DNA of 64,000 nt from Actinomycetota bacterium (lineage in GTDB: Bacteria > Actinomycetota > Actinomycetes > S36-B12 > CAIYMF01): NCBI GenBank assembly GCA_026393115.1, contig JAPLAU010000029.1:16057-80056 (forward strand), given 5' to 3'. The position numbers were made by a program. Positions 39,001 through 45,000 of the stretch are shown here, piece after piece. How positions within the stretch are numbered: the first letter of the stretch is position 1; each line of letters begins with the position of its first letter.

Positions 39001-42000
39001 CATTCCAACAACGGTACCCACCTCGTCACGCACCGCGCTCTTCACTGTCCAGAACACCCGCTCTTCACCGGTTTCCTCGATGATGTTGCGTTCCTCGCGG
39101 CTCACAGTGTTACCCGTGGTCAGGACTTCCTGATCGTTAGCGCGAAGTTCGTTAGAACGATCTAGATCGAAGAACTCACTGTCATCCTTGCCTACGATGC
39201 CAGCAAGGTCGGCACCGAAGAGTTTCTGCACCGACCGGTTGGCGTAGGTGTAATTACCGTCAAGATCCTTGCTGTACACATAGGCCTTGAGTGTGTCGAG
39301 AATGTCTTCGGCGTCCATACGGTCTCCTCGCTGGTGGTGGGGTCATCCCGCTCGCACGGCACCCATGCCGAGAGACTCCACGAATCGCGACCATAACACC
39401 ACAAGAGGACCTTGAACCGGTCGTTGGCTTCTGGTGGCCCTCGCCACCGTGCCAGCACGGTGCCGACCCCAATGCTCGACGCTAGCCTTGGCAGTGTGCC
39501 CAGGTCCGAAGTGCCGCAGGTTTCTTCGACCGACGATGCCGTACGCGCGCATGGGTGGCGATGGGACGACCGACTCGCGCACACACTGCACATCAACCAC
39601 GCTCCACCAACTGCCAGCGATGAGGCAGACCTTGCGGCTTGGCGAAAGAATATTGACCCCGATGCGCTCGGCACCTTCGACAAGCGTTTGGCATGGAGCG
39701 GCCTTACCGCCACCGACGCCGAGGCGCTGATCGCGGCCCAACCCGACACATCCGCAGACGACTGGTGGCCCGACCTTGTTGAACTGCGCGCCACTTGCCG
39801 CATCGCTGCTGAGGGTAAGGCATCGAACGCCCACTGGCTGGCCGAGATGGACGAGTCGATCCCACTCGGAGTGAGCGCGGAACCCATTCCTTTCGCCCAT
39901 CTACTCTGGCCGATTGCCGCGTGGGCGTGGACGTCGCTGAAGACGCGCATCGATGCGGCATGTCTCACACACGTCACCGCGACGGCACGTGATGATCTGC
40001 GGCGAGCACTTCTGGTGCGACTCTCCGGTTTGATCGATCGGGCCGTGACTGAAGACTTCACCCGCAACCGAACGGCGGGACAGTCCCTGATGTTGCGTCT
40101 CGGCGCGCCGGACACGTTCGACACGACCTCCCAGGTCACCTACGCAGCGTACTGTCGCGAGAACCTCGGTGATGGACTTGACCGGCTTCTCAGCGAGTTT
40201 CCAGTGATGGGTCGCATCATCGCGGTGGCGTGTCGTCAATGGCGTGCCGCGGTCACCGAACTCCTTGAGCGTGTCGATCGCGATCGACCACTTCTCTACA
40301 CCGAGCTCGGTATTGCCCAGGCGTCAGTACTTAAGCAGGTGCAGTGGGGCCTCAGTGATCCGCATCGCGGTGGTCGAAGCGTGGCGATTGTTGTTTTCGC
40401 GGTTGGCGACACCCAACGCGAAGTGGTGTACAAGCCCAAGGACATTGCGATCGAACAGAAGTTTCATCAGTTCGTCACCCACGTCGTCGGCCAGAGTGCC
40501 GGTCGCATCGAGCCAGCTGTGCGCACGGTGCGGTGCGACGACTACGGATACGTCTCGCGCGTGACCCACCTGCCCTGCACCCCCGACCAGTACTCCGACT
40601 TCTACCAATGCGCCGGTCGACTACTCGCCATCCTCTATGTGCTGGGCGCAAACGATTGCCACTACGAGAACCTCATCGCGCACGGGCCTACCCTGCACCT
40701 CATCGACGCCGAGACGCTGTTCGAAGGTAAGAACGTGTCGATCGGTTCAGCGGAAGTCATTCGCGGCCCCGATCCACTTGAGGCCTCGGTACTTCGAGTC
40801 GGGATGTTACCGACATGGATTCTCAGCGCCGCCAATTCGCCTAGTGATGTCAGTAGCTTAGGCATCGATTCGTGCCAGCCAGAGCGGGCACCTGTCCCCG
40901 GGTGGCGTTACGTGAACACTGACGCAGTTGTGTGGGCTACTCGCCCTGCCACAGGTGCCCAACCACATAGCCTGCCGGTGGATGGTCGTTCGCCGAACCC
41001 GCTGAGGCACCATGTCGACGATCTGATCGCCGGCTTCACCGAACTCTATGAGACTGCAATGCGGCCCGAGGTCTCAGATTTCGTTGTGTCGGCCATCGCC
41101 GACTTCAAAGGAGTGCGCCGACGAGCCATCTTGCGCGCAACAAACGTCTACGCGGTAGTGAATAGACGCGCGACCTCCGCGGCAGCACTGCGCTCGGCGC
41201 GTGTGCGCGGCTTCGAACTCGACCTACTTTCACGCAGTTCCCTCGTGAGTGACGAACGACCAGCCCTCTGGGATGCATTTCTCGCAGAACTGCATGACTG
41301 CGAGAACCTCGACATTCCGTACTTCGACTACCCCCTTGGGTCGATGGACATCGACGGAGGTCACCGTGTCATCAAAGGTCTTCTTGAGCACGACGGCCTC
41401 TCTCAAGCGATCACGCGAACGCAGTCTCTCTCCGCCGATGACCTCGCGTGGCAAGTGCGACTTATTCGTGGCTCCATGGCCGCGCGCTACGGCTCAGAAC
41501 GCGAGTCGAGTATTGAGATGGTGCGCGCATCTGAGGATTCACGCGACACCCGGGTACGCATCGCTGATGCCAACTCACTTCGCGACAGTCTGAAGTTGAC
41601 GGCCTTTCCCGACCGAACCGGAGCACCCAGTTGGTTGACTCTTCTACCCGTCAGTGGCAGCGACGTTGATCGCTACCGATTCGACGTGGTCGACTCCGGC
41701 CTCTACGCCGGTCGAGTGGGCATCGCCGCGTTTCTCAGTACTAGTAACGAACACGAACACGTCGCTTTCGCGCACGAGGTCGTGGCACCGGTAGTGCGTG
41801 TCCTCACAAGCACCGACGAGTTCGAGAGATTCCGATTCATGCGTGAGAGCGGGTTGGGGATGGCGGGTGTCGGCGGATTCCTGCGCGCGCTCGACCTATT
41901 GGCCCGCACCGAACTCGCTGCGTCGATCGACTTCGCGGCTCTGACTCGCACTCTCATGAACTCGATTACCGCTGAGGCAGTAGCCAAGGATCGAGCACGC

Positions 42001-45000
42001 GATGTCATGAGCGGAAGCGCCGGCGCCATCAATTGGATTGCGCGCTCACACCAACTCACACCTACAGATGAAACGCTGCGGACACTCCTGCTGCTCTCAG
42101 GACACCTTCTCGCCACTCAGCAAAGGTCAACCGGTGCGTGGCGCCCCTCGGCCAAGTCTGGGCGGCCACTCACTGGACTCGCGCACGGCGCCAGCGGTTG
42201 TGGGCTTGCCTTGATCGAAGCAGGAGTCGCTCTCGGTGATGACGAGTTGGTGGAAGCCGGCGCACGCGGTTTGCAATACGAAGCGGAGGTCTTCGACGCG
42301 AGAACAGCCAGCTGGCCCGACTTTCGCGTGAACGATGGCTCCCCCGGATTGATGGCGGGCTGGTGTACGGGATCGCCAGGAATCGGACTGGCACGCATTC
42401 AGGCGCTGCGTGCGATTCCGACGCATCCTGACGCCGACCGTTGGAGCGACGACATCTACGCCGCCGCACATGCGACGAAGGCAGCGCCACTCACGGCCGT
42501 CGACTGGCTGTGCTGCGGAAACCTCGGGAGGGCGTTGTTCCTGCGCGAAGCAGCAACATGGTCGGGAGACGCGGAGTGGATTGTGGCGGCCGCCAGTATT
42601 GAAGGCACCGTCATCGAGGCTGCAATCGAGCGCGGAAACTTCCGATTGTCACGAAACATCCACGCTGCCGATGAGAGCCCACCGCCTGGCCTGATGCAGG
42701 GCCTTTCGGGGATCGGCATGTACTTCGAATCGATCGAAACCGGAAACCGAGACCTGCTCGACCTCATCGTCTGAGGAAGAGCAGGCACCGACGCATCCCT
42801 CAAACCCCATTCCCCCATCGGGGGCACCCAAGCGCGCACCTAGCGCGTTAAAGCGCCCCACTACTCGGCCGCGCGGCCTTCCAACACACGCAACAACGCA
42901 CGCATCGGAGCGCCCGTCGCACCCGCGGGCCAGGCTTCCCACTGATCGGTGATGTACGCCTTGGAACCGACATCCATGTGCACCCACGGCGTATCGCCCG
43001 CGAACTGTCGCAAGTACGTGGCCGCCAACACCGAGGAATCCGGCACCGCGATTGACCCATTGATGAGATCAGCGTGCTTGGAACGCATCATCTCGAGGTA
43101 TCCAGGAACCAGCGGCATCTGCCACCCGCGATCGCCGGAAAGGTAACCCGCACCGAGCACCTCGCTCATCAGCGCATCGTCATTGCTAGCACCGGCCCAA
43201 AGATCGGGCCCATACCCCGCAGCGTCGGTGAGAGTTCCGATGTCGATGACGCCACTCACACCTTGTGCCACCAAGTACGCAATGCCGTCGGCGAGAATCA
43301 CGCGGCCCTCACAGTCAGTGTCGAGTACCTCGGTGGTCATTCCATCGGGGTGCACCGCAATGTCGCCCGGACGCGTGGCCGTGCCACTCACCATGTTTTC
43401 GGTCAGCGGCAGAATCGCGCGAACACCAACGTCGAGCCCCAACCGCGCTGCTGCAGAAATCGCTCCCGCCACGGCCGCTGCCGACGCCATGTCCGACTTC
43501 ATCCAGTGCACCTCGGTGAGCGGCTTCTTGAGATTAATGCCGCCGGCGTCGAAGGTGATTCCCTTACCTGTGATACCCAGCGGTGATGTCTGGTCGCCGT
43601 AACAGAGCTCGACGACCTGGGGAAGTTCCGCGCTGCCCTTTGCGACCGACAGAAGCCCGCCGAAGCCGGCCTCGCGAATCTCATCCTGAGTCCAGATGCA
43701 CGCGGTGACACCGGCCTCGGCGGCATCACGCGCAATCTCTGCTGCGAACACCGTCGGAGTCAGATGTCCGGCCGGAGTATCGGTGAGAGTGCGAACCCAT
43801 GCGAGACGCTCGCCCGTCACCTGGCCTCGGGCGGCAGCAGCCTTCACACCTAGGTCGCGCGCATCGTCGGCGCTCACAACAACGGAAACTGATGTCGGCA
43901 GTGCCTCGTGAGATGAGTACGGCGCCGACTCTGGCCTCGGGCGTTGGAAGCAACCGAAGATGCTGCCTTCGATCGCAGCACGCACCGACTCGGCCCGATC
44001 GTCGCCGAGTTGGCCCAGCGTGGTCGCGATGCTTCGTCGGCCGCGCACATGACTGGCCGCACGCATCGAGGCCGTGCGAATGACATCGGCTGTTACGTTC
44101 TTATGCGGACCGAGGCCCACGACGATGATCGTCGGCTGCTTCGGAGCAATCGGAGGGATCGCAATGGGCGCATCGTCCACGCCGCCTCGGAATGCCGGCG
44201 TGCCACGCACGGAAGCAACCACATCAACGCCCGTGCCGGCCACTCCTTCTAACGCACCGACGGCGGGCTTGCGATCGGCAAAGAACCCGATCACGACAAC
44301 ATCAGCGGATGGACGACTCGTGAGTGAGATACGCATAAAGTAAGCGTCCCACTGGCACGCACCCACGCGCTATCGACCCCACCGCAGGGCGCCAGGTCTG
44401 GCGAGAGTGCAGAACAGCCACCACCACTAGCGACTCTTCCACTGCCTCGACGCAACGTAACCCCTCGCCCACCCCAGCGCGCTCGGCCAATCGAACCAGT
44501 CGCACTGACGCCCTCGAGCTGCGCACGCCTTCTTGGCGCGTGCCTTCACCACGCTTGTTCCCGGATATGGCTCGCCGGACCTCAGACGCAGGTCAAAGAG
44601 TCGATTGACCACGTGCTTGGGCGAACGACGGCAGTCAGCGAAGTTCCAGTCGACGTCTTCGCATTCAGCGTAGAAGGTCGGGTTGGCTTTGATCTGGTTA
44701 AGCAGCAAATTCAGAGTACGAGGAAGATTCACCAAACCAGGTGCCGCAGCCGCGCCGAACGCATCCACCCCGATATCGCACCGAACCCAATGTTGTCCGG
44801 CGGTCCACTGAGCGCGAGTCGGAGAGTAGAACGTTCCATTGACTCTCGAGTAGTCCAGCCAGAAGACGCTTCCCACGATCGACAGATGAGACGGCTTCAC
44901 CGAGTAGGGCTTCAAGGTCGTGCGCAATCTCGAGAAGCAAGTGTTATGCATTCGGGTCACCATCAAGGCCGGAGGATCTTCCGTCGTGGGCTGCGTGACG

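What the first reader, a model, noticed from the sequence alone, without database searches (positions are those of the whole stretch)
39412..42774. Orphan LanM with a CCG (three-Cys) zinc site and no visible precursor, LanT or immunity genes
Seen: a full-length class II lanthipeptide synthetase with dehydratase motifs and a LanC-like cyclase domain. The canonical CHG zinc-ligand motif reads LCCGNLG (TGC TGC GGA at 42511..42519), alongside WCTG (42361..42369). Established: ProcM-type LanM enzymes use a Cys-Cys-Cys zinc site (CCG instead of CHG). They are substrate-promiscuous and often act on many, partly unlinked, Nif11/NHLP-leader precursors. Seen: I found no short Cys/Ser/Thr-rich ORF in the flanks (39319..39411 and 42775..42860). 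I also found no C39-peptidase ABC transporter anywhere in the 64 kb. Inference: the substrates may be encoded elsewhere. Alternatively this enzyme may modify a non-canonical substrate in an actinobacterium.
Basis: partly seen in the sequence, partly recalled or inferred. Interest (0 to 1): 0.7.

Follow-up and report, generated by a model that had tools for sequence, protein, structure and literature searches.

The report
Stand-alone ProcM-like lanthipeptide synthetase gene
This is an intact lanthipeptide-making enzyme gene of the known ProcM type, in an uncultured actinobacterium, that has been separated from its usual precursor and exporter genes; it is a new member of a known kind, not a new system.

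Summary
ORF 39412..42774 (+) is a full-length class II lanthipeptide synthetase (LanM; TIGR03897, 594 bits). All dehydratase motifs are intact. WC(T)G and LC-C-G align with the Cys875 / Cys911-His912 zinc ligands of CylM, so the site is Cys3 (ProcM type). Of its 114 closest full-length homologues, 110 carry CCG and none carries CHG.

No Nif11/NHLP-type precursor, C39-peptidase ABC exporter, HlyD-like protein or cluster regulator was found in any of the six frames of the 64 kb.

The closest relatives outside the species (56-58% identity) all sit in canonical clusters: Nif11 precursors, kinase, LuxR regulator, LanM, HlyD-like protein, C39-ABC, second ABC. The orphan state is therefore derived.

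A strain about 97% identical keeps the gene without indels. dN/dS is 0.25 overall and 0.19-0.28 in the three main domains, so the gene is maintained rather than decaying. Synteny with that strain breaks 118 bp after the LanM stop.

Best reading: a functional ProcM-like enzyme that acts on Nif11-leader peptides encoded elsewhere in the genome. A related MAG does carry dispersed Nif11 precursors. Interest is modest.

The parts
39412..42774 (+). lanM: class II lanthipeptide synthetase, ProcM-like (CCG). Longest ORF is 1120 codons from TTG 39412. Likely start is TTG 39424 or ATG 39472.
   Evidence: TIGR03897 at 594 bits. No indels and no stops relative to strain L083.
40198..41328 (+). Dehydratase (DUF4135) domain. 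Motifs intact: SDPHRGG 40354-40374, VYKPK 40426-40440, NDCHYEN 40651-40671, LIDAET 40699-40716, RRRAILRAT 41116-41142.
   Evidence: Pfam residues 263-639. Motifs aligned to the CylM D252/H254, D347/H349/N352, D364 and R506/T512 regions. Residue numbers R506 and T512 are from my own knowledge.
41686..42753 (+). LanC-like cyclase domain, with catalytic His motif LAHGASG at 42178-42198.
   Evidence: Pfam LANC_like residues 759-1114.
42364..42366 (+). First zinc-ligand Cys (W-C-T-G), equivalent to CylM Cys875.
42511..42516 (+). Cys-Cys pair of LCCGNLG, equivalent to CylM Cys911-His912. The third ligand is Cys instead of His.
39319..39471 (.). Divergent intergenic region between the PAS-domain gene (38971..39318, -) and lanM. 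An AAGAGGA Shine-Dalgarno-like element lies at 39403-39409. No peptide ORF.
42775..42892 (.). 3' flank of lanM. It holds 86 bp of spacer before the convergent pepA stop at 42861. Collinearity with the ~97%-identical strains L001 and L083 ends at 42892.
35830..39318 (-). Left neighbours, with no detectable link to lanthipeptide biosynthesis: MFS transporter, MarR-like protein, 68-aa Cys-rich protein, PrsW-family protease, 115-aa PAS protein.
   Evidence: The same genes are present in L001, but not beside the 56-58% identical LanM relatives.

Best explanation
The gene encodes a functional ProcM-like class II lanthipeptide synthetase.

Shown:
- Intact kinase-like dehydratase and LanC-like cyclase domains.
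- A Cys3 zinc site.
- Purifying selection.
- Host-like base composition.
- No precursor or exporter gene within 64 kb.

Inferred: the enzyme recognises Nif11-type double-glycine leader peptides encoded at one or more other loci of the same genome. It phosphorylates and eliminates Ser/Thr in their cores, then closes thioether rings with the zinc-activated Cys thiols. An unlinked C39-peptidase ABC exporter removes the leader and exports the product. The stand-alone arrangement arose when an ancestral Nif11 / kinase / LuxR / LanM / HlyD-like / C39-ABC / ABC cluster was broken up by rearrangement.
For: Family and motifs.

The four closest relatives outside the species whose loci were read (56-58% identity) share one conserved cluster layout. 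Two loci show it whole: two or three Nif11 precursors with GG cleavage sites and Cys/Ser/Thr cores (cores read for L002 and for L097), a kinase, a LuxR-type regulator, LanM, an HlyD-like protein, a C39-ABC and a second ABC. The other two contigs start at LanM and show only the conserved downstream exporter genes.

Selection, measured against a strain with dS = 0.14: LanM dN/dS is 0.25; it is 0.28 in the N-terminal region, 0.25 in the dehydratase and 0.19 in the cyclase. There are no indels in 3363 nt, and none of the 77 amino-acid changes touches a catalytic or zinc residue.

Composition: GC 61.7% against 61.8% for the window, and GC3 like the neighbouring genes.

Synteny with that strain ends 118 bp after the stop codon, consistent with rearrangement at the former cluster edge.

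Literature: CCG LanMs such as ProcM and SyncM process 29-79 precursors spread through the genome, and N11P leaders are associated only with CCG LanMs (PMC10027976; PMC10783134).

A MAG from the same NCBI batch (GCA_026392575.1) carries Nif11 precursors on three separate contigs. On the two contigs read they sit beside housekeeping genes.
Against: No precursor or exporter of this organism was actually seen. Only 64 kb of a 117.6-kb contig and about 4 kb beyond it were accessible. The database search with a Nif11 leader profile returned no hit that could be assigned to this MAG: the accessions found were MCX6433xxx, against MCX6461xxx for the window. dN/dS of 0.25 is looser than for neighbours with a similar dS (0.06-0.08). 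The first ligand motif reads WCTG and the residue before LCCG is Trp, where most relatives have WCHG/WCAG and DHLCCG. The functional meaning of these differences is unknown.
Confidence: 0.68

Rival explanations
1. Relic gene. The cluster was lost and LanM is a leftover with no remaining substrate, still intact only because too little time has passed.
For: All cluster partners are absent from 64 kb. Both flanks are unrelated housekeeping genes. There is a synteny break right after the gene. dN/dS is higher than for neighbours of similar divergence.
Against: Two strains separated by dS = 0.14 both keep a 3.36-kb ORF with no indel or stop. dN/dS is 0.19-0.28 in the three main domains, and all catalytic and zinc residues are untouched. 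Neutral decay would give a ratio near 1 and frameshifts.
Confidence: 0.15
2. Co-opted enzyme. The stand-alone LanM modifies a non-canonical substrate, for example a neighbouring small Cys-rich protein or another cellular protein, instead of a leader-bearing LanA.
For: Purifying selection without a local substrate. A conserved 68-aa Cys-rich ORF at 37602..37808 (-) lies three genes away.
Against: That ORF has CxxC pairs typical of a zinc ribbon, few Ser/Thr residues and no double-glycine leader. The left-hand genes do not accompany LanM in any other relative examined. The enzyme is 56-58% identical to ordinary Nif11-cluster enzymes, with no domain change.
Confidence: 0.07
3. A precursor is present in the window but was missed, because it is of a novel leader type, very short, or overlaps another gene.
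For: Searches depend on known leader families and on heuristics. The alignment-mode family scans show only the 25 top families.
Against: Four independent searches found nothing: the six-frame HMM scan of segments of 25 aa or more, the family scans of 147 intergenic ORFs, the double-glycine/core heuristic on 686 ORFs within 6 kb either side, and direct reading of both flanks. There is also no exporter or protease partner.
Confidence: 0.04

Closest known systems
ProcM (Prochlorococcus MIT9313) and SyncM (Synechococcus MIT9509): prochlorosin synthetases
   Same: The same LanM architecture. CCG (Cys3) zinc site at the same alignment position. Cyanobacterial ProcM-type LanMs are recovered as homologues at 25-32% identity. 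The closest relatives use Nif11 leaders. One enzyme is uncoupled from most or all of its precursor genes (PMC10027976, PMC10783134).
   Different: The host is an actinobacterial MAG, not a picocyanobacterium. Identity to the cyanobacterial enzymes is only about 25-32%. No precursor at all lies near the gene, whereas ProcM has some adjacent procA genes and a transporter (my own knowledge). The number and location of substrates are unknown.
Uncharacterised actinobacterial Nif11-type class II clusters from freshwater and environmental MAGs (P0002/L002, P0003/L097, P0004/L098, P0006/L099; Nanopelagicales L004)
   Same: The closest enzymes outside the species (56-58% identity for P0002, P0003, P0004 and P0006; about 38% for L004), with the same CCG site and the same length.
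   Different: In those loci LanM is flanked by Nif11 precursors, a kinase/LuxR pair, an HlyD-like protein, a C39-ABC and a second ABC. Here all of these are missing. They are replaced by PAS/PrsW/MFS genes on one side and pepA on the other.
CylM and LicM2 (structurally solved CHG-type LanMs)
   Same: Same fold and catalytic motifs. The family profile matches LicM2 at 1.9e-150 and CylM at 6.7e-84.
   Different: They have Cys-Cys-His zinc sites, dedicated adjacent precursors and narrow substrate range.

Membership tests
Class II lanthipeptide synthetase (LanM, TIGR03897) | Single polypeptide with an N-terminal DUF4135 dehydratase domain and a C-terminal LanC-like cyclase domain, scoring above the curated cut-off | tested here: met
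   594 bits against a cut-off of 304. DUF4135 covers residues 263-639 and LANC_like covers 759-1114.
Class II lanthipeptide synthetase (LanM, TIGR03897) | Kinase and elimination catalytic residues (CylM D252/H254, D347/H349/N352, D364, R506/T512 equivalents) | tested here: met
   SDPHRGG, NDCHYEN, LIDAET and RRRAILRAT are all present and aligned to CylM and LicM2. The CylM mutagenesis targets D347, H349, N352, D364 and H254 appear in PMC4550811. R506 and T512 are from my own knowledge.
Class II lanthipeptide synthetase (LanM, TIGR03897) | Three zinc ligands and the catalytic His in the cyclase domain | tested here: met
   C985, C1034 and C1035 (ORF numbering), and H925 in LAHGASG. Aligned to CylM C875/C911/H912.
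Class II lanthipeptide synthetase (LanM, TIGR03897) | Dehydration and thioether cyclisation of a LanA peptide | not testable with these tools
   Needs co-expression or an in vitro assay with mass spectrometry.
ProcM-like (CCG) LanM subgroup | Cys in place of the ligand His (CCG instead of CHG) | tested here: met
   LCCGNLG at 42508-42528. The CC pair aligns with the CH of CylM, LicM2 and GCR2.
ProcM-like (CCG) LanM subgroup | Phylogenetic neighbourhood made of CCG enzymes | tested here: met
   110 of the 114 full-length nearest homologues have CCG, none has CHG, and 4 were unresolved. C1014 is invariant and C1015 is at least 90% conserved across 48 aligned sequences. No formal tree with CHG outgroups was built.
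ProcM-like (CCG) LanM subgroup | Nif11- or NHLP-leader precursor peptides as substrates | tested here: inconclusive
   None in the 64-kb window. Present beside the closest relatives and within 10 kb in 29 of 44 clade loci with full flanks.
ProcM-like (CCG) LanM subgroup | Many diverse substrates per enzyme (promiscuity) | not testable with these tools
   Requires the whole genome and biochemistry.
Canonical class II lanthipeptide gene cluster (LanA + LanM + LanT) | Precursor gene(s) and a C39-peptidase ABC exporter adjacent to lanM | tested here: not met
   No such genes in 64 kb in six frames (Pfam).

The most novel reading that the evidence does not exclude
The genome contains no leader-bearing lanthipeptide precursor at all. 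This stand-alone Cys3 LanM, kept under purifying selection, has been recruited to dehydrate and/or thioether-crosslink a cellular protein or a leaderless peptide. That would be a housekeeping or regulatory role for a LanM outside RiPP biosynthesis.
Probability: 0.06. Interest if true: 0.75.

Novelty: new member of a known kind. Interest (0 to 1): 0.25.

Why it matters
It adds an actinobacterial, environmental example to the ProcM-type enzymes, in which one enzyme serves unlinked substrates; that pattern is best documented in marine picocyanobacteria. It also shows that the orphan arrangement is derived from a conventional Nif11 cluster and is still under selection. For genome mining, cluster-based tools would miss the products of this enzyme, so precursor-first searches of the whole genome are needed. 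The enzyme could interest engineers who want promiscuous CCG LanMs from a high-GC host. It does not challenge current understanding.

Tried and rejected
1. GC3-based gene calling did not discriminate frames at 62% GC. I used long ORFs plus Pfam instead.

2. Single-sequence phmmer with three Nif11 peptides gave only a marginal hit at 8837..9400 (-) with E = 0.042. This is the PIN/VapC toxin frame, not a precursor.

3. PDB searches with the single protein or the cyclase domain alone stopped short of the CCG position. A 48-sequence profile was needed.

4. De novo clustering of small ORFs in the 15 CCG-clade loci without Nif11, meant to discover other leader families, recovered only alternative reading frames of lanM itself. 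I abandoned it. The jackhmmer-derived leader HMM had in any case also captured NHLP-type leaders.

5. The GTDB-representative scan did not return the window's own genome. The best hit was 40% identical, plus a 60% C-terminal fragment (L035).

6. I tried to read the contig beyond the window. A Logan contig gave only about 4 kb more on the right: luciferase-like, M20 peptidase, CoA-transferase and methylmalonyl-CoA mutase genes, none of them a lanthipeptide gene by Pfam. This extra stretch was not scanned with the leader HMM.

7. I searched 5.8 billion proteins with a Nif11 leader profile to find this MAG's own precursors. The named NCBI hits belong to a different MAG of the same batch.

8. I considered the PAS gene as a remnant of the cluster kinase. 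There is no similarity.

9. Rfam and tRNA scans of the window found nothing. The promoter and terminator scan around lanM was uninformative.
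Full report
**What is there.** The longest ORF on the + strand between 39412 and 42774 has 1120 codons.
- Pfam finds DUF4135, the LanM dehydratase domain (residues 263-639, 1.2e-85), and LANC_like (residues 759-1114, 3.7e-37).
- NCBIfam finds TIGR03897 lanti_2_LanM at 594 bits against a cut-off of 304.
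- The start is uncertain. A Shine-Dalgarno-like AAGAGGA sits at 39403-39409. TTG 39424 corresponds to the start called for the 93%-identical protein P0001. ATG 39472 is the first Met.

**The zinc site.**
- Single-sequence searches of the PDB stopped before the CCG position.
- A profile of 48 homologues (A1) matched LicM2 (1.9e-150), CylM (6.7e-84), LanCL1/2, GCR2 and NisC.
- In those alignments WCxG falls on CylM W874-C875. The CC pair falls on CylM C911-H912, and on the CH of LicM2 and GCR2.
- Cys875, Cys911 and His912 are the zinc ligands in the CylM crystal structure (PMC4550811).
- The dehydratase motifs SDPHRGG, VYKPK, NDCHYEN, LIDAET and RRRAILRAT, and the cyclase His motif LAHGASG, are all present.
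- Two local oddities are shared only with P0001. The motif reads WCTG where relatives have WCHG or WCAG, and DWLCCG where most have DHLCCG.

**Which kind of LanM.** Of the 114 full-length proteins among the 120 best database hits, 110 have CCG in the C-terminal 170 residues. None has CHG, and four were unresolved. The hits run from actinobacterial MAGs (Nanopelagicales, "Actinomycetes bacterium") at 38-58% identity to Nostoc, Synechococcus and Prochloraceae enzymes at 25-32%. The literature describes CCG as the signature of the promiscuous ProcM/SyncM group. It also states that N11P (Nif11) leaders are associated only with CCG LanMs (PMC10027976; PMC10783134).

**Is it really orphan?** Five lines of evidence say yes, for the whole 64 kb.
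- Pfam on about 45 larger ORFs gives housekeeping and accessory functions. These include fumarase, an aquaporin, a nucleoside hydrolase, RmuC, SbtA, PIN toxins, a beta-lactamase-like protein, MFS transporters, PrsW, PAS, PepA, a two-component system and amidohydrolases. There is no Peptidase_C39 and no complete ABC exporter.
- The kinase, LuxR regulator, HlyD-like protein, C39-ABC and second ABC of the closest relative's cluster (plus two flanking ORFs of that locus) give nothing better than E = 0.18 against all six frames.
- An HMM grown by jackhmmer from 110 leader peptides found next to related LanMs covers both Nif11 and NHLP-type double-glycine leaders. Its best hit in all six frames has E = 15.
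- 147 intergenic ORFs of 33-160 aa hit no RiPP precursor family among the matches displayed by NCBIfam and Pfam.
- None of 686 ORF/start combinations within 6 kb either side fits a double-glycine leader plus a Cys/Ser/Thr core. The two immediate flanks are empty.

**Where the gene comes from.** The window belongs to an NCBI MAG labelled "Actinobacteria bacterium" (proteins MCX6461275/78, contig of 117,653 bp).
- The closest relatives outside the species whose loci were read (P0002, P0003, P0004, P0006; 56-58% identity) share one cluster layout.
- Two loci show it whole: two or three Nif11 precursors, a ~680-aa kinase, a LuxR-type response regulator, LanM, a 276-aa HlyD-like protein, a C39-ABC and a 949-aa ABC.
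- The other two contigs begin at LanM and show only the conserved downstream exporter genes.
- Their precursors have typical leaders ending in GG and short cores containing Cys, Ser and Thr.
- The stand-alone state here is therefore derived.
- It is not rare in the wider clade. Of 44 CCG-clade loci with at least 8 kb on both sides, 29 have a Nif11/NHLP-type ORF within 10 kb and 15 do not.

**Is it still in use?** Two metagenome contigs (L001 and L083, JGI Ga0194055/56) are about 97% identical to window positions 29378..42892.
- Against L083, lanM has 108.5 synonymous and 84.5 non-synonymous differences: dS 0.139, dN 0.035, dN/dS 0.25.
- There is no indel or stop in 3363 nt.
- Per domain, dN/dS is 0.28 (N-terminal region), 0.25 (dehydratase), 0.43 (linker, only nine changes) and 0.19 (cyclase).
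- None of the 77 residue changes hits a catalytic or zinc residue.
- This indicates purifying selection. It is looser than for the PAS gene (0.06) or the beta-lactamase-like gene (0.08) at comparable dS.
- GC (61.7%) and GC3 match the surroundings, so this is not a recent foreign insertion.
- Collinearity with the other strain ends 118 bp after the lanM stop. There the window has pepA, while L001 has a GDSL lipase and a GT4 glycosyltransferase. In the relatives' clusters the exporter genes follow LanM at this position.

**Mechanism proposed.**
- Shown: an intact, selected ProcM-type enzyme without local partners.
- Inferred: it acts in trans on Nif11-leader peptides encoded elsewhere, and an unlinked C39-ABC removes the leader.
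- Indirect support comes from ProcM/SyncM biology. It also comes from a MAG of the same NCBI batch (GCA_026392575.1), in which Nif11 precursor genes lie on three separate contigs. On the two contigs whose genes were read, they sit among housekeeping genes: der GTPase, an ANTAR regulator and a periplasmic binding protein.
- I could not link any precursor to the window's own MAG. The accession ranges differ (MCX6433xxx against MCX6461xxx), and only about 4 kb beyond the window could be read.

**Rivals.**
- A decaying relic (0.15) is disfavoured by the selection data.
- Co-option to a non-canonical substrate (0.07) has no positive evidence. The nearby 68-aa Cys-rich ORF looks like a zinc ribbon, and the left-hand genes do not travel with LanM in other genomes.
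- A missed local precursor (0.04) is disfavoured by four independent searches.

**Verdict.** The idea that the substrates lie elsewhere is the best reading but is unverified. This is a new member of a known kind, a ProcM-like CCG LanM in an uncultured actinobacterium. Interest is modest (0.25).

Noticed in passing
window 14940..24926 (-): A giant 3328-aa ORF made of repeats: nine decapeptide-repeat stretches (6.6e-173), DUF285 x3, pentapeptide repeats, and PKD and MBG domains. It is probably a huge surface protein. A 141-aa ORF (24969..25394) lies upstream, and a 287-aa membrane protein with partial ABC_membrane/Bestrophin-like matches (13818..14681) lies downstream.
   Followed up: partly
window 2130..2854 and 8834..9603 (-): Two diverged copies of a ribbon-helix-helix antitoxin plus PIN-toxin (VapBC-like) module, 6.7 kb apart. 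They are 83% identical over the 300-nt repeat that was detected. They bracket the fumarase, aquaporin, nucleoside hydrolase and NHL-repeat genes.
   Followed up: partly
window 4982-5118 and 8689-8825: A 137-nt direct repeat at 90% identity. One copy lies at the 3' end of the nucleoside hydrolase gene and the other just upstream of the NHL-repeat gene. Unexplained.
   Followed up: no
window 30962..38931 versus 38971..42892 (compared with L083): Divergence from the sister strain is very uneven. Genes from about 31.0 to 38.9 kb are 98-100% identical (dS 0-0.04). The PAS gene, lanM and the beta-lactamase-like gene at 29559..30719 are 93-94% identical (dS 0.14-0.28). This suggests a recent homologous exchange of the 8-kb block next to lanM.
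   Followed up: partly
window 37602..37808 (-): A 68-aa ORF with three CxxC pairs and a seventh Cys (MLCAQCDESARGVCRFCGRGVC...WCQVC), lying between the PrsW-protease and MarR-like genes. It is 100% identical in L001 and L083 and has no significant Pfam family. It looks like a zinc ribbon rather than a lanthipeptide precursor.
   Followed up: partly
window 53044..53223 (-) and 55089..55262 (+): Two paralogous small Cys-rich ORFs (57-59 aa) that share the motif C-x2-CGK-x2-W-x-GCG-x-HV-x-QVM ... RC-x-C. Neither has a Pfam family.
   Followed up: no
window 13184..13791 (+): An MntA-like nucleotidyltransferase antitoxin and a HepT-like RNase toxin pair (type VII toxin-antitoxin). Further PIN toxins lie at 25505..26122 and 31424..31888, so the window is rich in toxin-antitoxin modules.
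   Followed up: no
L004, L005, L015 (Nanopelagicales and other actinobacterial MAGs): Nif11 precursors from three different MAGs share a nearly identical core, YTFP(P/K)TDWIYCDNPWTN(A/Y/V)WCTL(K/R)C. This is a conserved lanthipeptide family in freshwater actinobacteria, unlike the hypervariable prochlorosin cores.
   Followed up: no
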